Shown here piece by piece: positions 270 to 10,210 of a stretch of DNA of 13,283 nt. Location of the stretch: UHGV virus genome UHGV-1611552; one strand, 5' to 3'. Origin of the DNA: a virus. Below the pieces are notes generated by a model. It was not told the origin of the DNA and did no database searches. It saw nothing but the letters and a program-made list of their open reading frames with translations. Made by a program: the position numbers and the translations under genes. Each line of letters begins with the position of its first letter. Position 1 is the stretch's first letter.

Positions 270-869
270 TCAGAATTTATAACCGACACCCACGATGAAA
301 CTGTTGGTACGCCAGTCACCGCTGCCGGAGCCTTCATAAGCGACGTCAACGGCCACGGATTCGGTCGGGTTAAACTGCACGCCAGCTCCCCACGCCAGAG
401 ACGTGTTGCTGTGGCGACCGTCATCACTTCCGGTCAGCACATCGTGCGTTTTCCCCTTGTTGTCAGTTACGCGGAGATAATCCCCGGAGAAAGTCGACAC
501 ACGGCTGTAAGCCACACCCGCCATCGCATACGCGCTGAACCATTCATTCACGCGTACAGACGGCCCCGCCATCACGCTGAACCAGCGGTTACGCACGGAA
601 TCTTCATGCCAGCGGGTATCGCTGTAATGGGTCAGCTGGCGATTCTTGTCTCCTGCATAGCTGAATGACGTCACCAGCCCCAGTGTGTCCGTAAACTCAT
701 AACGGTATTTCACGTTAATCCCGTTCAGATCATCACTGCCGGGAACGTTCGTCCGGGCATGAAGATACCCCGCGCTCAGCGTGGACTGATGTTCAGACGC
801 CCATGCAGGCGCACCGGATACGACCAGACAGATGGCTGCGGACAAAATGGCTGCACAAACTTTACGCAT
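270..869 (-). CDS. lom: Outer membrane protein Lom (Ail/Lom/PagC/Rck family 8-strand beta-barrel), 199 aa
   Basis: ATG at 869..867 with GAGAGG SD about 6 nt upstream; TGA at 272..270. N-terminal signal peptide MRKVCAAILSAAICLVVSGAPAWA; C-terminus ...AYEGSGSGDWRTNSFIVGVGYKF with terminal Phe typical of OM beta-barrels. Sits immediately downstream of J as in lambda. Confidence 0.9.
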   Translation of the reverse strand: MRKVCAAILSAAICLVVSGAPAWASEHQSTLSAGYLHARTNVPGSDDLNGINVKYRYEFTDTLGLVTSFSYAGDKNRQLTHYSDTRWHEDSVRNRWFSVMAGPSVRVNEWFSAYAMAGVAYSRVSTFSGDYLRVTDNKGKTHDVLTGSDDGRHSNTSLAWGAGVQFNPTESVAVDVAYEGSGSGDWRTNSFIVGVGYKF

Positions 870-936: not shown

Positions 937-3900
937 TCAGCTGATACTGATGCCTGCGGTGGCTTTCTTCATCACCACAACCAGCAAATCGCTGATACTT
1001 GCTGTGGGATACCAGTCATTTACCAGCCATGCTGACACCGAAAACTCCAGCGTCATGTGGCCGTGACCAGCTGGCATATCAATAACACCACTGTAAATCA
1101 GCGTATTATCCAGCGCGGTACGGTTATAAATTTCAGCACCATTTTTCTTCACTATCAGGCGGCATGACGAATAAATATCGTTATTCTCCCGCTCATGTTT
1201 AGCGCCGCAGAATGCCACCGCTGGAATAACAATTTGCCTGTCAAAAGGCTGATCGTCATAAATCCTGACGGTAATGGTCCCTGATGGCCACCGCTCCGGT
1301 GCCCGGGAGTCCCGCGGGAAAGCCTTACCCACTGTTTTGACAATATCGCCTTCAATCTGATTGGCTGACAGTTTCCCCTTAATCTGACAGTTCTCATTAA
1401 TCGTGACGTTGTTGAGCGTCCCGGAGTTCGCATTCACACTGCCACTGATATCCGCATTTTTAGCAGTCAGCTTTCCGTCCGGTGTCAGGGAAAATGCCGG
1501 TGGATTTCCACCGCTGGTAATGGTGGGGGCCGTCAGGCGTTTCAGGAACACGTCGTTCATGAATATCTGATCGCCCTGACCAACAAACATCGGTTTTGTG
1601 TTGCCATTCGCAGGATTAACCATCGCAATCCTGTCCGCCGCCAGCAGCACCTGACTCTGCATGCCGTCAGGGGTGTTCTCAATACCGGCACCAATACCCG
1701 CGATATAAAGGCGTCCGTCCTGCATCTGCTGCAGCTTCACAGCCCACATGCTGTTCAGGTTATTATTTGTATCAACCTGAACCTTCTGTATCTGCTGAAT
1801 TGCCGCACTCTGGTCTTCCAGTTTCTTATTGACGGTCTGCGTGATTTCATTGCTGACATCCGTAATGGACGTCCTGATTTCAGCCAGGTCAGGCGCAAGC
1901 TGACCGTTATCAATCTGCGTCCACAGCTCCTGAGCCAGATGGGTTTTCCCTATCTCGCCTTTGAAAAAATCCAGATAGCCGGATGCATCATCACTCGGCT
2001 GACCAACAGCCTCCACGAATGCCGATTTGCCAACGGTGTTCACACTGCGAACGTAAAAATAATAATCATGGCCCGGTTTGATATTGATACTGGCGGCTAT
2101 CCAGTACAGCGCCGTGCCAAGATAGCGGGCTGTGGTTTCAACCTGCCTGATATCGGTAATCCGCTTTTCCGAGAACCAGAACTCAAACTGTACCGTCGGA
2201 TCATAAACCGCAAGATGCGGCGTGGCGGTTATCTGAAAATAGCCCGGCGTCAGCTCAATCCGCGACGGCACTGCAGGTGCGGCAATCCGGAACGATACCG
2301 ATGCCGGATCGCCCTGCTGCCCCCACGCATTTACCGCCCGGACTGTCAGCCTGTAGTTCCCTGGCGCCAGTTGCGTGAAGCGGTATGTGGTTTCCGTCGT
2401 CCGGGCCGTGCTGACCAGCCGCTCACTGCCGTCATCCGCTGCCACGGTCAGGCGAAGCAGGAAGCTCACGCCCTTCACCACCTTCGGCGTGTCCCAGCGC
2501 GCCAGCACCTGATATTCCCCGCTGTCTGCGGTGACTTCGGCGGTCAGGTGCTGCACCGCTGGCGGCGTGACACCATTCACCGTGCCGCTCTGGTCGCCGT
2601 CAAAGTGCGCCCCGTTATCCACGATGGCCTCTTTTTCCGGTACATGCTGCACGGCGGTGATGGCATACGTGCCGTCGTCGTTCTCACGGATACTCACGCA
2701 GCGGAACAGGCGCTGGCGCAGCGTCGGCAGCTTCAGCCCCCATACGCTGTATTCAGCAACACCCTCAGGAACACGGCTCACTTTTACCTTCACGCCGTCG
2801 GTGACGGACTGAACCTCCACGCTGACCGGATTGCCACTTCCGTCAACCAGGCTTATCAGCGTGGTGCCGGAGGATGGCAGCGTGATTTCACGGTCGAGCG
2901 TCAGCGTCCGGGTCTGGCTGTTCACCGCCAGCACGCGCCCGCCGGTGCTGATCCCCGCATAGTCATCATCGCAGATTTCAATAACATCACCCGGCACATG
3001 GCGAAGCCCTTCGGCACCCACGCTGAAATCCACGGTCTGCGTCTCCAGCAGCTCCGTTTTAATCAGCCACAGCCCGGCGCGGTGTGCCTGCCCCCGGCTG
3101 GTACAGCCAAAGGCATCCATCTTCGTAACATTACGACCGTAACGGGCAATGGCCTGCGTATCTTCAACAAGCTCTGTCGCCGTCTCCCAGCCGTTGTTCG
3201 GGTCAATCCAGTTCACCTCAACGGCATTATGGCGGTCCTTCAGGGCGCTGAAGCTGTAGCGGAACGGCGCGCCATCATCCGGCATCACCACATTACTGCG
3301 GTTATAGGTCCACACCTTATCCGACGGTCGGTCCTGCACGAACGTCAGCGTCTGCCCGTTCCATACCGGCATACAGCGCATCGCCGAGCAGAAATCACTG
3401 AGCACATCCCACGCCTTGCGCTGTGTGGTCAGCCAGGCATTACAGGTGATGCGCGGCTCCGTGCCGCCAAAACCGTCCGGCACTGACTGGTCGCAGTACT
3501 GGCCGATGACATACAGCGCCCATTTATCCACATCCGCCGCACCAAGACGTTTCCCCATGCCGTAGCGTGGATGGGTCAGCATATCCCACAGACACCAGGC
3601 CATGTTATTGCTGTATGCTGGCTTAAACGTTCCGTCCCAGATACCGCTGTATTGCCGCGTCTGCGGGTTATAGTTCGACGGCACCTGCAGAATACGCCCG
3701 CGCAGATGATAATTACGGCTCACCTGCTGGCTGCCGAACTGCTCCGAATCCACCTGTACGCCGACCAGTGCCGTGTTCGGGTAGCACTGTTTCACATCGA
3801 TGATTTCGGTGTATGACGACCAGAGCGTTTTGTTCTGCAGCTGGTCTGTGGTGCTGTCCGGCGTCATCCTGCGCATCCGGATATTAAACGGGCGCGGCGG

Positions 3901-4416
3901 CAGGTTATCCACCACCACCGAGGCCAGATACTGCGAGGTGGTTTTGCCCTTAATGGTGATGTCTTTTTCCGTCACCCAGCCACCGTTACGTTGTATCTGA
4001 ACCAGCAGGCGGACTTCCGACGGATTCCTGTCTCCCTTTGAGGTGGTTTCCACCAGTGCCTGTACACCGAAGGTAAAGCGCAGACGGTCGATGTTTGCCG
4101 ACGTAATGGTACGGGTGATCGGCGTGTCATATTTCACTTCCGTACCCAGCACCGTCTCGGAGCCGGAGGATTCAAATCCCTCCGGCGGTGTCTGCTCCTG
4201 CTCACCGGCCCGGAACACCACCGTGACGCCGGATATATTGGTATTCCCCTCACTGTCCAGCACCGGCGTACTGTTCAGCAGCACGCTTTTTAATCCATCC
4301 ACCGGACCTTCAACCGGCCCTTCGCTGATGGCATCGATCACACTCAGCAGCTGCGTGGACTTCAGGTTGTCCTTCGCTTCGCGCGGGGTATGCCCCTTAC
4401 TGCTGCCTTTACCCAT
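937..4416 (-). CDS. J: Tail tip / host specificity protein J (central tail fibre), 1159 aa
   Basis: ATG at 4416..4414, TGA at 939..937. N-terminus [34 protein letters not shown]... matches lambda gpJ as recalled. It is the largest ORF and sits 60 nt downstream of I, as in lambda. Length differs from the 1132 aa I recall for lambda J, and the distal third appears divergent. Confidence 0.95.
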
Positions 4417-4430
4417 TCGTCATGCTCCAT

Positions 4431-4458
4431 AAACGATAAAACCGCCCGGAGGCGGTTT
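4431..4458 (-). other. GC-rich hairpin with U-rich 3' tail in the I-J intergenic region
   Basis: On the minus strand: AAACCGCC-TCCG-GGCGGTTT (8 bp stem, 4 nt loop; plus 4439..4458) then T-ATCGTTT (plus 4431..4438), followed by the J SD GGAG and ATG. Confidence 0.5.
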
Positions 4459-4476
4459 CACATAAAACATTTTGCA

Positions 4477-5148
4477 TCAGCGACCAATCACCACAACCTG
4501 ACCACCATCCCCTTCGTCTGCCGTGCTGATCTCCTGAGAGACCACCCGCGACCCCACGCGCATTTCACCGTACAGAACGGGCAGAACATTGCCCTGGGCA
4601 ACCATGTTATCCAGTGAGGAGAAATAGGTGTTCTGTTTGCCGTTATCTGTACTTGCTGCCGTGGGCGTCCTGGCTTTCGGTGCCAGCATCTGCGCCACAC
4701 CACCAAGTACCATACTGGCACCGAGAGAAAACAGGATACCGGTCATACCACCGGCCCCAATGGCTGCCCCCCATGCTGCAAGAGTGGCTCCGGCAGTAAA
4801 GAATGATCCGGCAATGGCGGCAGCCCCCAGAACAATCTGGAATACGCCCCCTGACTTGGCCCCGGCGACTCTGGGAACAATATGAATCACAGCGCCGTCA
4901 GGCAGAGTCTCATGTAACTGCGCCGTTAACCCGGACGTGCTGACGTCCCGCCCGGCAATCCGTACCTGATACCAGCCGTCGCTCAGTTTCTGACGAAACG
5001 CCGGGAGCTGTGTGGCCAGTGCCCGGATGGCTTCAGCCCCCGTTTTCACACGAAGGTCGATGCGGCGGCCAAATCGTTGTAAATCCCCGTAAAGGCAGAT
5101 GCGCGCCATGCCCGGTGACGCCAGAGGGAGTGTGTGCGTCGCTGCCAT
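4477..5148 (-). CDS. I: Tail assembly protein I, 223 aa (N-terminal ubiquitin-like domain, Gly/Ala-rich hydrophobic C-terminal half)
   Basis: ATG at 5148..5146, TGA at 4479..4477. Sequence MAATHTLPLASPGMARICLYGDLQRFGRRIDLRVKTG... matches lambda gpI as recalled. Overlaps the 3' end of K by 103 nt in a different frame, as in lambda. Confidence 0.9.
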   Translation of the reverse strand: MAATHTLPLASPGMARICLYGDLQRFGRRIDLRVKTGAEAIRALATQLPAFRQKLSDGWYQVRIAGRDVSTSGLTAQLHETLPDGAVIHIVPRVAGAKSGGVFQIVLGAAAIAGSFFTAGATLAAWGAAIGAGGMTGILFSLGASMVLGGVAQMLAPKARTPTAASTDNGKQNTYFSSLDNMVAQGNVLPVLYGEMRVGSRVVSQEISTADEGDGGQVVVIGR

Positions 5149-5789
5149 TTGTCGGTATACCTCTCTCGTTTACTCAGTTGTTCAGGAATATGGTGCAGCA
5201 GCTCGCCGTCGCCGCAGTAAATTGCGGCGTGATTCGGCACCGATGAACCAAAACAGCACAGCAGAACATCGCCCGGCTGTGCCGCTGACAACGGCACCTG
5301 ATACAGCCCTGTGGCCTCCAGATTATCCAGATAGAGATTCTGACCGTTACGCCACCAGTCATCCTCGCGATGAAAATCCGGCATCTCAATCCCCGCCAGA
5401 TGGTAAGCATCCCGGAACAGCGTGTAACAGTCCGTCACCCCGTGCTCAAAGCGCCGCCCGGTGAGATGCGGCACACAGCGGAACTTGTGAATCGCCCCCC
5501 GGCAGACCAGCCACCACGGCAAATCACTCTGCACCTGCAGCCGCCGGTCGGCCTCACTCAGCCAGGGCAGACCACCGGGGTGGCTGTGGACCAGCGCCAC
5601 AATCTCTCTCTGCATTTCTGCACTCAGCCAGTCCTCCGGCGACATCCGGAAATACTCCTCCGGCTCACCGGAGATATTCACGCAGGGAAAATATCTTTCC
5701 CCCTCCGGCGTGCTTACCACGAAGCCGCACGACTCCGCTGGCGCACATCGCCGGGCGTGCGCCAGAATCGCTGATTCTGTCTCTGTCAT
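5046..5789 (-). CDS. K: Tail assembly protein K (JAB/MPN domain + NlpC/P60 domain)
   Basis: Reading frame open from 5831 to the stop at 5048..5046. JAMM-type motif HSHPGGLPWLSEAD (HxHx7Sx2D) at about 5547..5588; NlpC/P60-like Cys in GVTDCYTLF at about 5427..5429. Two candidate starts: ATG at 5789 (247 aa, 4 nt after the L stop, weak SD) or ATG at 5645 (199 aa, the length I recall for the lambda annotation, GGAGGAG SD). The longer form is given here because it includes the region upstream of the HxH motif. Confidence 0.8.
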   Translation of the reverse strand: MTETESAILAHARRCAPAESCGFVVSTPEGERYFPCVNISGEPEEYFRMSPEDWLSAEMQREIVALVHSHPGGLPWLSEADRRLQVQSDLPWWLVCRGAIHKFRCVPHLTGRRFEHGVTDCYTLFRDAYHLAGIEMPDFHREDDWWRNGQNLYLDNLEATGLYQVPLSAAQPGDVLLCCFGSSVPNHAAIYCGDGELLHHIPEQLSKRERYTDKWQRRTHSLWRHRAWRASAFTGIYNDLAAASTFV

Positions 5790-6821: not shown

Positions 6822-9379
6822 CGTCCACCTCCGGAGAACAGGCCACCATCACGCATCTGTGTCTGAATTTCATCACGGGCACCCTTGCGGGCCATGTCAT
6901 ACACTGCCTTCATCATCTGTGGACCTGGCAGACCATTCGTACCGTCGTTCTGAATCACCACGTTGTTGTTCTGCTCAAACCTGATACCCTCTGAACGCCG
7001 CATTTGCGCCGGACTTCCGGTGCCACCGACATAACCGCCGGTGGCATAGCCGCGCATCAGCCGGTAGAGATTTCCCACGCCAATCCGGCTGGTTGCCTCC
7101 TTCGTGAAGACAAATTCACCACGGTGAACAATCCCCGCTGGCTCATATTTGCCGCCGGTTCCCGTAAATCCTCCGGTTGCAAAATGGAATTTCGCCGCAG
7201 CGGCCTGAATGGCTGTACCGCCTGACGCGGATGCGCCGCCACCAACAGCCCCGCCAATAGCGCTGCCGATACTCCCGACAATCCCCACCATTGCCTGCTT
7301 AAGCAGAATTTCTGTCATCATGGACAGCACGGAACGGGTGAAGCTGCGCCAGTTCTGCTCACTGCCGGTCAGCATCGCCGCCATATTCTGTGCAATACCA
7401 TCAAAGGTCTGCGTGGCTGCACTTTTTACCTGCGACATACTGTCCGTGGCGCTCTCTTCCCACTCACTCCAGCCGGACTTCAGGCCTGCCATCCAGTTCC
7501 CGCGAAGCTGGTCTTCAGCCGCCCAGGTCTTTTTCTGCTCTGACATGACGTTATTCAGCGCCAGAGGATTATCGCCATACTGTTCCTTCAGGCGCTGTTC
7601 CATGGCTTCCCGCGCTGCCTGCCGGTCAGTCAGCCCCCGGTTTTTTGCATCAATGGCGGCCCGTTTTGCCCGTTGTTGCTGTGCGAATTTATCCGCCTGC
7701 TGTGCCAGCGCGTTCAGGTGCTCCTGATAGGTGACCTTGTCGCCAAGTACAGCCAGCTGGCGTTTGTACTCCAGCGTCTCGTCTTTATGCGCCAGCAGGG
7801 ATTTCTCCTGTGCGGACAGCTGGCGACGTTGTGCCGCCTCCTCCAGTACCGCGAACTGACTTTCTGCCTTCCACAAATCCCGGCGCTGCTGGCTGATTTT
7901 CTCATTCGCTCCGGCATGCTTCTCCAGCATCCGGAGTTCTGCCTGAAGCGTCAGCAGGACAGCATGAGCACTGTCTTCCTGACGATCGCCCGCAGACACC
8001 TTCACGCCGGACTGTTTCGGCTTTTTCAGCGTCGCTTCATAGTCCTTTTTCGCCGCCGCCATCAGCGTGTTGTAATCTGCCTGCAGGATTTTCCCGTCTT
8101 TCAGTGCCTTATTCAGTTCTTCCTGACGGGCGGTATATTTCTCCAGCGGCGTCTGCAGGCGTTCGTAAGCCTTCTGCGCCTCTTCGGTATATTTCAGCCG
8201 TGACGCTTCGGTATCGCTCTGCTGCTGCGCATTTTTGTCCTGTTGACTCTGCTGCTCAGCCTTCTTTCGGGCGGCTTCAAGCGCAAGACGGGCCTTTTCA
8301 CGATCATCCCAGTAACGCGCCCGCGCTTCATCGTTAACAAAATAATCATCCTTGCGCAGATTCCAGATATCGTCCGCTTTCTTAAACGCGGCCTCTGCCT
8401 TAATCAGCATCTCCTGCGCGGTATCAGGACGACCAATATCCAGCACCGCATCCCACATGGATTTGAATGCCCGTGCTGTCCTGTCTGCCCAGGTTTCCAG
8501 CGTGCCCATGTTCTCTTTCAGGCGGCGGGTCTGGTCATCAAACCCTTTCGTCGCGGCCTCGTTCGCCGCCTGCAATGCCCCGGCTTCATCGCCGGAACGC
8601 TGCAACTGAGCAACATACGCAATCTGCTCCGCCGTCACGTTATGGAACTGGCGTGCCATCGCCGTCAGCCCCGACGTCGGGTCTGTGGTCAGCTTCCCGA
8701 AGGCTTCAGCGACCTTGTCCACCTCCACGCCGGATGCAGAGGAGAAACGCGCCACACTCTGGCTGATGGACGCAATCTGAGCCTCACCGCTTACTCCCGC
8801 CTTAACCAGTGCGCTGAGTGACTCGCTGGTCTGGTTAAACGTCAGCCCTGCCGCCTGCCCGGCTCTGGACAGGACCAGCATACGATCTGCCGTCAGTCCC
8901 GCCTGATTGCCGGAAAGGACCAGCGTTTTGTTGAAATCGGACAGGGTTGAGTTGCCCTGATACCAGGCATACGCCAGCGCTCCGGTCGCCACCGCCAGCG
9001 AGGTGGCCCCCACCATCGGCAGGGTGATCGCACCGGCAAGCCCCCTGAACATGGGGATCATCCCGCCGAAGGAGTCCTTAACCTGACCACCCTGTTGCAG
9101 CAGGATCAGCCACGGACTTTGCCCGCCTGCAAGCTGCGTGGCCACGTCAGTGAACTGCGCAGGCAGCATACGCATGGCGGCTTTATACTGCCCGACGGAA
9201 ATCCCCGCTTTCTGTGCAGCCAGCGCCTGTCGGCTCAGCGACTGTTCAACGACTGCCGCTGTTTTTTTCGCATCACTTTCCGTACCGGAAAAATGACGCC
9301 TGACTCTGGCCATCTGCTCGTCAAATCTGGCCGCATCCAGACTCAAATCAACGACCAGATCGCCTACCGGTTCAGCCAT
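6818..9379 (-). CDS. H: Tail tape measure protein H, 853 aa
   Basis: ATG at 9379..9377, TGA at 6820..6818. 853 aa equals the lambda gpH length. Long charged, coiled-coil-like central region (...EAARKKAEQQSQQDKNAQQQSDTEASRLKYTEEAQKAYERLQ...), hydrophobic N-proximal segment and Gly-rich C-proximal segment. Start overlaps the end of G-T by 8 nt (ATGGCTGA), as in lambda. Confidence 0.95.
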   Translation of the reverse strand: MAEPVGDLVVDLSLDAARFDEQMARVRRHFSGTESDAKKTAAVVEQSLSRQALAAQKAGISVGQYKAAMRMLPAQFTDVATQLAGGQSPWLILLQQGGQVKDSFGGMIPMFRGLAGAITLPMVGATSLAVATGALAYAWYQGNSTLSDFNKTLVLSGNQAGLTADRMLVLSRAGQAAGLTFNQTSESLSALVKAGVSGEAQIASISQSVARFSSASGVEVDKVAEAFGKLTTDPTSGLTAMARQFHNVTAEQIAYVAQLQRSGDEAGALQAANEAATKGFDDQTRRLKENMGTLETWADRTARAFKSMWDAVLDIGRPDTAQEMLIKAEAAFKKADDIWNLRKDDYFVNDEARARYWDDREKARLALEAARKKAEQQSQQDKNAQQQSDTEASRLKYTEEAQKAYERLQTPLEKYTARQEELNKALKDGKILQADYNTLMAAAKKDYEATLKKPKQSGVKVSAGDRQEDSAHAVLLTLQAELRMLEKHAGANEKISQQRRDLWKAESQFAVLEEAAQRRQLSAQEKSLLAHKDETLEYKRQLAVLGDKVTYQEHLNALAQQADKFAQQQRAKRAAIDAKNRGLTDRQAAREAMEQRLKEQYGDNPLALNNVMSEQKKTWAAEDQLRGNWMAGLKSGWSEWEESATDSMSQVKSAATQTFDGIAQNMAAMLTGSEQNWRSFTRSVLSMMTEILLKQAMVGIVGSIGSAIGGAVGGGASASGGTAIQAAAAKFHFATGGFTGTGGKYEPAGIVHRGEFVFTKEATSRIGVGNLYRLMRGYATGGYVGGTGSPAQMRRSEGIRFEQNNNVVIQNDGTNGLPGPQMMKAVYDMARKGARDEIQTQMRDGGLFSGGGR

Positions 9380-10210
9380 ACCGGACTCCTCCTGCGATCC
9401 CTTCTGATACTGTCATCAGCATTACGTCATCCTCCGTCATGTCCGCCACATCCGGGGAAGTAGGGATAACTTCATTCCCGTCCGGGCCAAAGCGGACACC
9501 TCCGGCAAGCCCTGCCGCTTTCTGCATCAGCACATCATCTTCAGGCTCTTCGTCAGCCTCGCGCCGGTTCAGCAGACTGAAATCCAGCGGATGCATATCC
9601 GGATCGCTGAAAAACAGGCTGAGCACGGTGTACGTCAGCCCGGAAAAGTGCATATCCAGCAGAACATCATGAAAATAATGGGTACTGTAAAAGCGGTGCC
9701 AGTCGGCATACTCCGTGGATGACATCCCGGCAAGCATGGCACGCCAGTCGGGTCGCCCCATCTCACGCGCCAGTTTCAGGGCAAAACTCAGCTCACCGTC
9801 GAACACTTTCCCGCAGAAACAGGCTCTGCAGGCCCGGCGTCCTCTGCCTGTTCAGGTGCATCATTCACCACAAACTCATACATACCGGACAGCCGGTACA
9901 CCACGTTTTCAGCATGAGAAATTGCCTCCGTGGGCCAGGTGGTAAGCACTTCCTGCTCAATCTGTTTAACGGCTTCATTCATGGACGGCAGCTTTGTCTT
10001 CTGCGGATGGTTATGCCACAGGGACATCGCCACCAGAAACGCGCCGGTTCTGATGGCGTCTTCCACAGTAAACTTCCGGTTGCTGTCTGACTCCGCCTGT
10101 TCTGCCTGCCGTTTCATCAGGGCGAGATGCTCAATACGCTGCAGGGCTGACAGTTCAGAAAACGTGACGGTCACACCGTTATGTTCAAATGATTCGGTTT
10201 TCAGGAACAT
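9372..10210 (-). CDS. T: Tail assembly chaperone G-T fusion made by -1 programmed ribosomal frameshift
   Basis: Slippery heptamer G_GGA_AAG lies in the G frame at minus 9812..9806 (G codons 134-135, Gly-Lys). The -1 frame is open from the very next codon (GTG at 9806..9804) to TGA at 9374..9372, giving ...SAGK/VFDGELSFALKLAREMGRPDW.... Layout identical to the lambda G/GT recoding site. Confidence 0.85.
9788..10210 (-). CDS. G: Tail assembly chaperone G, 140 aa
   Basis: ATG at 10210..10208 with GGAGAG SD; TGA at 9790..9788. MFLKTESFEHNGVTVTFSELSALQRIEHLALMKRQAEQ...; length matches lambda gpG. Confidence 0.9.
   Translation of the reverse strand: MFLKTESFEHNGVTVTFSELSALQRIEHLALMKRQAEQAESDSNRKFTVEDAIRTGAFLVAMSLWHNHPQKTKLPSMNEAVKQIEQEVLTTWPTEAISHAENVVYRLSGMYEFVVNDAPEQAEDAGPAEPVSAGKCSTVS
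9806..9812 (-). promoter_or_regulatory. -1 ribosomal frameshift slippery site GGGAAAG (G to G-T)
   Basis: Plus-strand CTTTCCC at 9806..9812 is GGGAAAG on the minus strand, in X_XXY_YYZ register with the G reading frame, 7 codons before the G stop. Confidence 0.85.

What the first reader, a model, noticed from the sequence alone, without database searches (positions are those of the whole stretch)
4477..5789. Overlapping K-I pair encodes a JAB + NlpC/P60 protein next to a ubiquitin-like protein with an internal Gly-Gly
Seen in sequence: K carries an intact JAMM-type motif HSHPGGLPWLSEAD (HxHx7Sx2D, about 5547..5588) and a Cys-containing NlpC/P60-like motif GVTDCYTLF. The I gene starts inside K, 103 nt before the K stop, in another frame. 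The first 101 residues of I end in ...HIVPRVAGAKSGG (GG codons at about 4846..4851) and are followed by a Gly/Ala-rich hydrophobic tail. Established knowledge: comparative work on prokaryotic ubiquitin-like systems has noted lambda gpI as a beta-grasp (Ubl) protein and gpK as a JAB + NlpC/P60 protein. Inference: K may cleave I after the Gly-Gly during tail-tip assembly. As far as I know the biochemical role of this pair remains poorly defined.
Basis: partly seen in the sequence, partly recalled or inferred. Interest (0 to 1): 0.55.

Follow-up and report, generated by a model that had tools for sequence, protein, structure and literature searches.

The report
Lambda tail genes K and I
These are the well-known tail-tip assembly genes K and I of a lambda-like phage: K is a two-headed protease and I is a tail-plug protein made with a removable ubiquitin-like cap, an idea predicted in 2006 and reported as experimentally confirmed in 2025-26, so the finding is correct but not new.

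Summary
On the minus strand, K (5789..5046, 247 aa) has a complete JAMM motif and an NlpC/P60 Cys-His-His triad. I (5148..4477, 223 aa) starts 103 nt inside K in the -1 frame.

I is almost identical to lambda gpI. It has three parts:
- a ThiS/MoaD-like beta-grasp domain (aa 14-97);
- an uncharged Gly/Ala-rich hydrophobic stretch (aa 102-157);
- the C-terminal domain that cryo-EM places as the tail-tip lumen plug.

Iyer, Burroughs and Aravind predicted in 2006 that K cleaves the ubiquitin-like domain off I. Three later sources support it: a 2025 conference report on lambda, a 2026 preprint on the F-pyocin homologues, and the missing N-terminal domain in lambda, T1 and F-pyocin structures.

My one refinement concerns the cleavage site. 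Among 62 diverse homologues, the conserved equivalent of the ubiquitin/MoaD C-terminal Gly-Gly is G96-A97 (in VPRVAGA), not G100-G101. A Gly-Gly pair at that downstream position occurs in only 35 of 62. The exact scissile bond is therefore open. The substrate of the equally conserved NlpC/P60 domain is also unknown.

Verdict: already known, low interest.

The parts
5046..5789 (-). Gene K (tail tip assembly protein K, 247 aa). An assembly factor with two peptidase domains that is not found in the virion.
   Evidence: ORF and translation. Pfam Prok-JAB plus NLPC_P60. 96-97% DNA identity to lambdoid phages annotated K/I/L/J. gpK was not detected in lambda virions by mass spectrometry or cryo-EM (PMC10721106 and PMC12617516).
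5475..5789 (-). JAB/MPN+ (JAMM) metalloprotease domain of K, aa 1 to about 105. Predicted catalytic residues are E19 (5733-5735), H68/H70/S78/D81 (motif 5547-5588).
5118..5459 (-). NlpC/P60 (C40, papain-like) domain of K, aa 111-224. Predicted triad is C121 (5427-5429), H187 (5229-5231) and H199 (5193-5195).
   Evidence: Pfam NLPC_P60 at 5.8e-13, covering model positions 1-105 of 105. C121, H187 and H199 are invariant in 57 aligned sequences and present in 13 distant phages. The AF2 model is only moderate here (pLDDT 45-72), and no NlpC/P60 structure appeared in the listed fold hits.
4477..5148 (-). Gene I (tail tip assembly protein I, 223 aa plus stop), the precursor of the tail-tip lumen plug.
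   Evidence: Pfam Lambda_tail_I at 1e-28. Matches lambda gpI chains 8iyk/8iyl/8k35/8xcg at 5.5e-139, differing only around residues 163-165.
5046..5148 (-). The 103-nt K/I overlap, with I in the -1 frame relative to K. It encodes the K C-terminal tail and I residues 1-34.
   Evidence: There is no X XXY YYZ slippery heptamer. In 12 other phages where both boundaries could be read, the arrangement ranges from no overlap to a 58-nt overlap, so the length is specific to the lambda group.
4858..5109 (-). Ubiquitin-like (ThiS/MoaD-type beta-grasp) domain of I, aa 14-97. It ends in VPRVAGA, and the G96-A97 codons are 4858-4863.
4846..4857 (-). Short tail K98-S99-G100-G101 between the beta-grasp end and the hydrophobic stretch.
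   Evidence: K98 is present in 36/62 and G101 in 53/62 homologues. A Gly-Gly pair occurs here in only 35/62, and the tail length varies from 2 to 7 residues.
4678..4845 (-). Uncharged Gly/Ala-rich hydrophobic stretch, aa 102-157, resembling transmembrane segments.
   Evidence: 56 residues, no charged residue, 45% Gly+Ala, mean hydropathy 1.2-1.6. The literature predicts two transmembrane helices and proposes outer-membrane insertion (PMC7291167, PMC10721106, PMC12617516).
4480..4749 (-). The part of I that is resolved in mature lambda tails (aa 134-223). [quoted passage not shown]
   Evidence: The chains deposited in 9e7m cover only residues 133-222. Cryo-EM descriptions are in PMC10721106 and PMC12617516.

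Best explanation
This is the K-I module of a lambda-like siphophage tail-tip operon (order M-L-K-I-J on the minus strand).

I is made as a precursor with three parts:
- an N-terminal ubiquitin-like beta-grasp domain (aa 14-97);
- a very hydrophobic Gly/Ala-rich stretch;
- a C-terminal domain that becomes the trimeric plug inside the tail-tip cone and grips the C-terminus of the tape-measure protein.

K is a non-structural maturation enzyme carrying a JAMM-type (deubiquitinase-like) zinc protease domain and a papain-like NlpC/P60 domain.

During tail-tip assembly the ubiquitin-like domain stays on I, probably as a solubilising or steric cap for the hydrophobic stretch. Once I is docked with its partners (J, L), K's JAB domain clips the domain off just after the beta-grasp fold. 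The bond cut is either after G96-A97 or after G101. Only the C-terminal fragment remains in the virion.

Basis of each step:
- Shown here: domain identities, intact catalytic motifs, conservation and gene order.
- Taken from the literature: that cleavage happens, that in lambda it depends on K, and that K is absent from virions.
- Inferred: which K domain cuts, the exact bond, and the role of the cap.
For: Domain assignments:
- Pfam hits for K and I.

Catalytic residues: those of both K domains are conserved in close homologues, and the NlpC/P60 triad is present in all 13 distant phages and the JAMM motif in 12 of them, from alpha-, beta- and gamma-proteobacterial hosts. In 10 of 10 distant phages tested, K has both Pfam domains next to an I homologue.

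Literature:
- The prediction of exactly this processing (PMC1779556).
- Lambda cryo-EM resolves only gpI 134/135-223, and gpK is absent from virions.
- Lambda virion mass spectrometry found one gpI peptide at 9.87% coverage. The only tryptic peptide of that size is 202-223.
- T1 gp34 is modelled only from residue 92.
- The N-terminus of F-pyocin PA0640 is present in stalled precursor tips and absent from mature particles. The gpK homologue PA0639 is essential and absent from particles.
- A conference report states that gpK cleaves the Ubl domain of gpI only after gpI has engaged other tip proteins.
Against: - The direct lambda biochemistry is known to me only from a meeting summary. I found no full paper.
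- My structure models of I and of the NlpC/P60 domain are low confidence (pLDDT 48 overall for I, 45-72 for NlpC/P60) because the usable alignments were shallow.
- The profile-to-ThiS/MoaD sequence matches are not significant on their own (E 0.22 to CysO, 0.0035 to MoaD).
- Nothing here shows which of K's two peptidase domains cuts I, or where.
Confidence: 0.85

Rival explanations
1. The NlpC/P60 cysteine peptidase domain of K removes the ubiquitin-like domain of I, not the JAB domain. The JAB domain would then only bind the Ubl, or have another substrate.
For: The Cys-His-His triad is as strictly conserved as the JAMM motif. Iyer et al. note phages in which an I homologue sits next to a K version that has only an NlpC/P60 domain. 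Papain-fold enzymes include many deubiquitinases (established knowledge).
Against: The JAMM motif is complete and conserved, and JAMM enzymes are the ones known to clip ThiS/MoaD/SAMP-type Ubls (the top structural hit, 5lda, is JAMM1 bound to SAMP2). The meeting report attributes the activity to K's 'deubiquitinating domain'. Iyer et al. suggest the NlpC-only versions may be degenerate prophage copies.
Confidence: 0.1
2. The ubiquitin-like domain of I is not removed. It stays attached but is flexible and so invisible to cryo-EM. K's proteases would act on something else.
For: Missing density alone cannot distinguish disorder from cleavage. The authors of the F-pyocin preprint raise this themselves before testing it.
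Against: F-pyocin mass spectrometry detects the N-terminal region in stalled precursors but not in mature particles. Lambda virion mass spectrometry recovered only a peptide whose size fits the C-terminal tryptic peptide, although the N-domain has several good tryptic peptides. The meeting report states cleavage directly.
Confidence: 0.04
3. The 103-nt out-of-frame overlap serves a programmed -1 frameshift that makes a K-I fusion protein, in the way the nearby G/GT pair does.
For: I is in the -1 frame relative to K. Database proteins that join K and I exist (for example P0155, P0013, P0236).
Against: No X XXY YYZ heptamer lies in the overlap. The database fusions have different junctions, as expected from random indels or assembly errors. 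I has its own ATG preceded by GAGAGG. In other phages the overlap is anything from absent to 58 nt.
Confidence: 0.02
4. K's JAB domain is mainly a counter-defence deubiquitinase. It would strip host Bil-type ubiquitin-like modifiers from the central tail fibre J, rather than act as an assembly protease.
Against: K is essential for tail assembly in hosts without such systems (lambda genetics as cited; F-pyocin deletion of PA0639). It is always encoded next to its own Ubl-bearing substrate. This could be a secondary activity at most.
Confidence: 0.05

Closest known systems
Bacteriophage lambda gpK / gpI (TAPK / TAPI of Iyer, Burroughs & Aravind 2006)
   Same: This is essentially the same thing. 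I matches lambda gpI at 5.5e-139 with differences only near residues 163-165. The DNA is 96-97% identical to lambdoid phages annotated K, I, L and J. The 103-nt overlap, gene order and domain layout all match.
   Different: Only allelic differences: the I loop reads TPTAAS where lambda has TPRIQT, and K has a few substitutions. No functional difference is apparent.
P. aeruginosa F-pyocin PA0639 / PA0640 and phage T1 gp34
   Same: Both have a plug protein with a removable or absent N-terminal domain. Only the C-terminal part is seen in mature particles. The profile of the I N-domain matches both solved chains (25vf_9 at 2.3e-16, assumed here to be PA0640 from its 200-residue length; 9l9p_A at 6.3e-22).
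   Different: They are distant in sequence (phage homologues of this kind are roughly 33-36% identical). The tail after the conserved Gly differs: GSKQSG in 25vf_9 and GSKTGG in T1, against GAKSGG here.
JAMM protease + ThiS/MoaD-type Ubl pairs (P. furiosus JAMM1-SAMP2; Mec+/CysO; QbsD/QbsE)
   Same: A JAMM zinc protease is encoded next to a beta-grasp protein whose fold ends in a conserved small-residue pair, and it trims what follows that pair. The best structural matches are JAMM1 for K and MoaD, SAMP and CysO for I.
   Different: No E1-like adenylating enzyme, no sulfur-transfer partner and no conjugation machinery are encoded in the window. The Ubl is discarded and the downstream polypeptide is the product. 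The terminal pair is Gly-Ala rather than Gly-Gly.
Bacterial Ubl conjugation defence systems (Bil; CBASS Cap2/Cap3)
   Different: Those are host E1/E2-driven conjugation systems. Here there is no E1 or E2, and the Ubl is a genetically fused pro-domain of a phage structural protein.

Membership tests
Lambda tail assembly protein I family (Pfam PF06805, TAPI) | N-terminal Lambda_tail_I domain above the Pfam gathering score | tested here: met
   100 bits against a cut-off of 23.8, aa 14-97.
Lambda tail assembly protein I family (Pfam PF06805, TAPI) | Gly-rich hydrophobic linker followed by the C-terminal domain that forms the tip plug | tested here: met
   aa 102-157 are uncharged with 45% Gly+Ala. 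aa 133-222 align with the deposited plug chains of 9e7m at 1.8e-49.
Lambda tail assembly protein I family (Pfam PF06805, TAPI) | Gene position between K and the central fibre gene J | tested here: met
   The window order is L, K, I, J. The same order holds in all 11 distant phage loci whose records annotate these genes.
Ubiquitin-like beta-grasp superfamily, ThiS/MoaD branch | Beta-grasp fold | tested here: met
Ubiquitin-like beta-grasp superfamily, ThiS/MoaD branch | Gly-Gly at the C-terminal end of the fold | tested here: not met
   The homologous pair is G96-A97. Residue 97 is Ala in 41, Ser in 15 and Gly in 3 of 62 homologues. The G100-G101 pair lies four residues further on and is not conserved as a pair (35/62).
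Ubiquitin-like beta-grasp superfamily, ThiS/MoaD branch | Activation of the free C-terminus by an E1-like adenylating enzyme (sulfur carrier or conjugation) | tested here: not met
   No E1-like gene is in the window. The large minus-strand ORFs run as a continuous set of phage structural genes plus a lom-like gene, of which L, K, I and M were confirmed by Pfam. The host could in principle supply one, which is not testable here.
JAMM/MPN+ metalloproteases (Pfam Prok-JAB PF14464) | E...H-x-H-x7-S-x2-D zinc and catalytic motif | tested here: met
   E19, H68, H70, S78 and D81 are all present and conserved in homologues.
JAMM/MPN+ metalloproteases (Pfam Prok-JAB PF14464) | MPN fold | tested here: met
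JAMM/MPN+ metalloproteases (Pfam Prok-JAB PF14464) | Zinc-dependent peptidase or isopeptidase activity on a Ubl C-terminus | not testable with these tools
   Known only from a meeting summary.
NlpC/P60 (MEROPS C40) papain-like peptidases | Pfam NLPC_P60 domain with the Cys-His-His/polar triad | tested here: met
   49.2 bits against a cut-off of 23, with full model coverage. C121, H187 and H199 are invariant in 57 sequences.
NlpC/P60 (MEROPS C40) papain-like peptidases | Papain-like fold confirmed by structure comparison | tested here: inconclusive
Ubl conjugation systems (Bil, CBASS Cap2/Cap3 type) | E1 and E2 enzymes encoded with the Ubl and the DUB | tested here: not met
   None in the window or in the 13 related phage loci. 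The 11 annotated loci show only tail genes around K and I.

The most novel reading that the evidence does not exclude
K may be a dual-substrate maturation protease.

Its JAB domain would clip I after G96-A97, the true ThiS/MoaD-equivalent terminus, rather than after the Gly-Gly.

Its equally conserved NlpC/P60 domain would carry out a second, still unassigned cleavage. [quoted passage not shown]

Two observations make this conceivable:
- The I plug holds the gpH C-terminus in the same lumen.
- In F-pyocin the I-homologue is still uncut in mutants lacking the tube, distal-tail or tape-measure protein. That places its cleavage late in assembly, the stage at which the lambda literature places gpH cleavage (after tail assembly, before head joining).

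This is speculation. Nothing here tests it.
Probability: 0.12. Interest if true: 0.5.

Novelty: already known. Interest (0 to 1): 0.15.

Why it matters
The K-I pair is a clean example of a virus using a ubiquitin-like pro-domain and a deubiquitinase-type protease as an assembly checkpoint. It links phage tail morphogenesis to the evolutionary roots of ubiquitin processing. That story has already been predicted and, according to recent reports, demonstrated, so this window adds no new biology. The points still open are the exact scissile bond and the substrate of the NlpC/P60 domain.

Tried and rejected
(1) A pseudo-complex model. I modelled a natural K-I fusion (P0155) with AlphaFold2 to see which I residues dock at the JAB zinc site. 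The JAB part was good, but the I part and the linker had pLDDT below 50-68, and no coordinates are returned, so no docking information came out.

(2) A first MAFFT alignment mixing K and I homologues with the fusion (A2) misaligned the K sequences onto I. I discarded it.

(3) IMG/VR loci found with the I alignment were all at least 96% identical and gave no diversity. A scan with a distant representative (P0353) found nothing. I obtained diversity instead from tblastn against GenBank phages.

(4) Profile searches of the I N-domain against PDB sequences and Pfam gave only sub-threshold ThiS/MoaD hits (E 0.22 and 0.027). They are useful for alignment register but not as proof of homology.

(5) Programmed frameshifting in the overlap: rejected.

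(6) Literature searches for a full paper on gpK biochemistry or on the function of its NlpC/P60 domain found none.

(7) The GGGAAAG at 5695-5701 inside K is in the wrong frame for slippage and is at chance frequency.

Full report
WHAT IS THERE

The window is the tail-gene block of a lambda-like siphophage, read on the minus strand. The order is a lom-like gene, J, I, K, L, M, H, the G/T pair, V and upstream tail and head-completion genes; L, K, I and M were confirmed by Pfam, the rest are named by position and similarity to lambda. The 1.5 kb around the finding is 96-97% identical to many lambdoid phages whose records annotate tail tip assembly proteins K, I and L and the fibre protein J.

All the coordinates in the finding check out.
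- K runs 5789..5046 (247 aa).
- HSHPGGLPWLSEAD is aa 68-81 (5547..5588).
- GVTDCYTLF is aa 117-125 (5415..5441).
- I runs 5148..4477 (223 aa).
- The overlap is 103 nt, and I is in the -1 frame relative to K.
- G100-G101 of I are encoded at 4846..4851.

DOMAIN IDENTITIES: K

Pfam places Prok-JAB on K aa 4-98 (1.7e-13) and NLPC_P60 on aa 111-224 (5.8e-13, full model coverage).

The JAMM motif is complete: E19, H68, H70, S78 and D81. The NlpC/P60 triad is C121, H187 and H199. In 57 aligned homologues and fusions, the triad is invariant and the JAMM residues are kept in nearly every sequence that covers them (43/43 for E19, 51/52 for the others).

K itself has no solved structure. The best sequence match in the PDB is a bacterial JAB domain, 2kks, at 3e-6.

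I modelled a natural K-I fusion protein, P0155, whose K part is about 94% identical to the window's. The JAB domain came out at pLDDT 86-95. It matches:
Foldseek gives 1.7e-5 to JAMM1 bound to SAMP2.

The NlpC/P60 part was modelled only at pLDDT 45-72 and produced no listed fold hits. That domain therefore rests on sequence evidence.

DOMAIN IDENTITIES: I

I hits Pfam Lambda_tail_I at 1e-28 over aa 14-97. It is nearly identical to lambda gpI in PDB entries 8iyk, 8iyl, 8k35 and 8xcg, with differences only near residues 163-165.

My model of I alone was poor: mean pLDDT 48, and 59-68 in the N-domain. Even so, all 50 top Foldseek hits were ubiquitin-like beta-grasp proteins, including Urm1, MoaD at probability 1.0, a SAMP, SUMO and ubiquitin. 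The best E-value was only 7e-3.

After the beta-grasp comes a 56-residue stretch with no charged residue and 45% Gly+Ala (aa 102-157).

WHAT IS ALREADY KNOWN

Iyer, Burroughs and Aravind (2006, PMC1779556) described exactly this.
- TAPI has a ThiS/MoaD-like Ubl domain, a Gly-rich linker and a C-terminal domain.
- TAPK has JAB and NlpC/P60 domains.

Cryo-EM of lambda resolves only gpI residues 134/135-223, as a trimeric plug in the tip lumen holding the C-terminal coiled coil of gpH. gpK is not found in virions (PMC10721106, PMC12617516).

The lambda virion mass-spectrometry table lists one gpI peptide at 9.87% coverage. The only tryptic peptide of that size is the C-terminal 202-223. This is an inference from peptide length, not a stated identification.

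T1 gp34 is modelled only from residue 92 of 199 (PMC11945409).

A 2026 preprint on F-pyocin reports the following:
- The gpK homologue PA0639 is essential and absent from particles.

A report of an October 2025 meeting summarises work from A. Davidson's group. [quoted passage not shown] I found no full paper on this.

CONSERVATION ACROSS DISTANT PHAGES

An exhaustive search found 3,179 cluster representatives related to I. tblastn found I homologues in 1,746 GenBank phage records.

I fetched 13 loci from phages of Mannheimia, Rhizobium, Burkholderia, Ralstonia, Stenotrophomonas, Pseudomonas, Klebsiella, Edwardsiella, Salmonella, Shigella and E. coli.
- The order L-K-I-J is kept in all 11 loci whose records annotate these genes.
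- All 10 K proteins tested carry both Pfam domains.
- The NlpC/P60 triad is readable in all 13 and the JAMM motif in 12; the Shigella phage 2019SD1 copy lacks the ExCG segment that carries the JAMM glutamate.
- Where both boundaries could be read (12 loci), the K-I junction varies from a gap of 268 nt to overlaps of 1-58 nt. The 103-nt overlap is therefore a lambda-group detail, not part of the mechanism.

There is no slippery heptamer in the overlap. Database K-I fusions have different junctions. Programmed frameshifting is therefore unlikely.

REFINEMENT OF THE CUT SITE

I aligned 62 diverse I homologues, 22-59% identical to the window's N-domain.

| Position | Conservation (of 62) |
|---|---|
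| P92 | 62 |
| G96 | 61 |
| Residue 97 | Ala 41, Ser 15, Gly 3 |
| G101 | 53 |
| A Gly-Gly pair downstream of 97 | 35 |

The segment between residue 97 and the hydrophobic stretch varies from 2 to 7 residues.

Global profile alignments to E. coli MoaD and ThiS, ubiquitin and NEDD8 all place their terminal Gly-Gly on G96-A97.

A profile search of PDB sequences returned a ThiS/MoaD-family protein, CysO (4n6e_B), as the first hit outside the family. Its ...LTILPAVAG(G) aligns on ...IHIVPRVAG(A). The E-value is only 0.22, so this is informative for register and not for significance.

The Pfam domain model also ends at residue 97.

In T1, the deposited model of gp34 starts at residue 92, which by my numbering is the second Gly of its KTGG. 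That slightly favours a cut upstream of the Gly-Gly. The map is at 4.3 A, so this is weak.

My estimate is that a cut after A97 is somewhat more likely than a cut after G101. Only a mass or N-terminal measurement can decide.

MECHANISM, WITH ITS BASIS

- Shown here: the two K peptidase domains have intact and conserved catalytic residues. I is Ubl + hydrophobic stretch + plug domain. The pairing is conserved.
- From the literature: the Ubl is removed in mature particles, K is needed and is not a virion component, and cleavage is gated by assembly.
- Inferred: the JAB domain is the one that cuts. The Ubl acts as a solubilising or steric cap for the very hydrophobic stretch until the plug is docked. 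The site is G96-A97 or G101.
- Unknown: the substrate of the NlpC/P60 domain.

VERDICT

The feature is a textbook gene pair of a lambdoid phage. Novelty: already known. Interest: low.

Noticed in passing
window 4422-4470 (-), core hairpin 4436-4461, between the I stop (4477) and the J start (4416): A stable hairpin, AAACCGCC-UCCG-GGCGGUUU, followed by UAUCGUUUAU. Its free energy is -23.2 kcal/mol with z = -3.6 against shuffles. The simple terminator scan missed it because the U-run is interrupted. The phage 21 record lists a terminator among the features under the 1.5-kb K-I match (H12); I did not check that it lies at this position. It may set the I:J expression ratio.
   Followed up: partly
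window 5148, 5109 and 5049 (-): three candidate starts of I: Databases carry I as 223 aa (ATG M1), 210 aa (ATG M14) and 190 aa (GTG V34, which overlaps the K stop as GTGA). Most distant homologues begin at the M14 equivalent, right at beta-strand 1. Some close relatives have Leu at position 14, which argues for M1 in the lambda group. The 190-aa version would delete strands 1-2 of the beta-grasp and is probably a mis-call. One review analysed that truncated form.
   Followed up: partly
window 5645-5789 (-), K aa 1-48: Large database clusters annotate K as a 199-aa protein starting at M49 (MSPEDWL...), with only the NlpC/P60 Pfam domain (P0179-P0181, P0186). That start removes the JAMM glutamate E19 and hides the JAB domain. 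The 247-aa form starting at 5789 is conserved in all full-length homologues.
   Followed up: partly
K-I junction; database proteins P0155, P0013, P0236, P0188, P0135, P0204: At least 20 database proteins join K and I in one reading frame. In the six whose sequences I read, the junctions differ and some contain internal frameshifted stretches. They look like indels in prophages or assembly errors. Iyer et al. had noted one such fusion in an E. coli prophage.
   Followed up: partly
window 4651-4662 (-), I aa 163-166: The only difference from lambda gpI is TPTAAST where lambda has TPRIQTT, in the loop just after the hydrophobic stretch. Both TAAS and RTQT alleles circulate among close homologues.
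   Followed up: no
[quoted passage not shown]: The tape-measure protein has a hydrophobic Gly-rich region that resembles the I linker in composition. Its cleavage to gpH* has no assigned protease according to PMC12617516. I did not test any link to K's NlpC/P60 domain.
   Followed up: no
window 9806-9812 (-): The GGGAAAG slippery heptamer lies at the boundary of the G ORF (9788..10210) and the T-frame ORF (9372..9806). This is the known lambda G/GT -1 frameshift site.
   Followed up: no
window 937-4416 (-) and 270-869 (-): J is 1159 aa here (lambda J is 1132 aa, per PMC7291167) and is followed directly by a lom-like outer-membrane protein gene. The receptor-binding end of J may differ from lambda's. 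I did not examine this.
   Followed up: no
L084 (Shigella phage 2019SD1) 1337-2005: The K homologue of this T1-like phage lacks the ExCG segment that carries the JAMM glutamate, which its close relative Klebsiella phage K50_evo16 (L087) retains. This looks like a local frameshift or a sequencing error near the 5' end of the gene.
   Followed up: no
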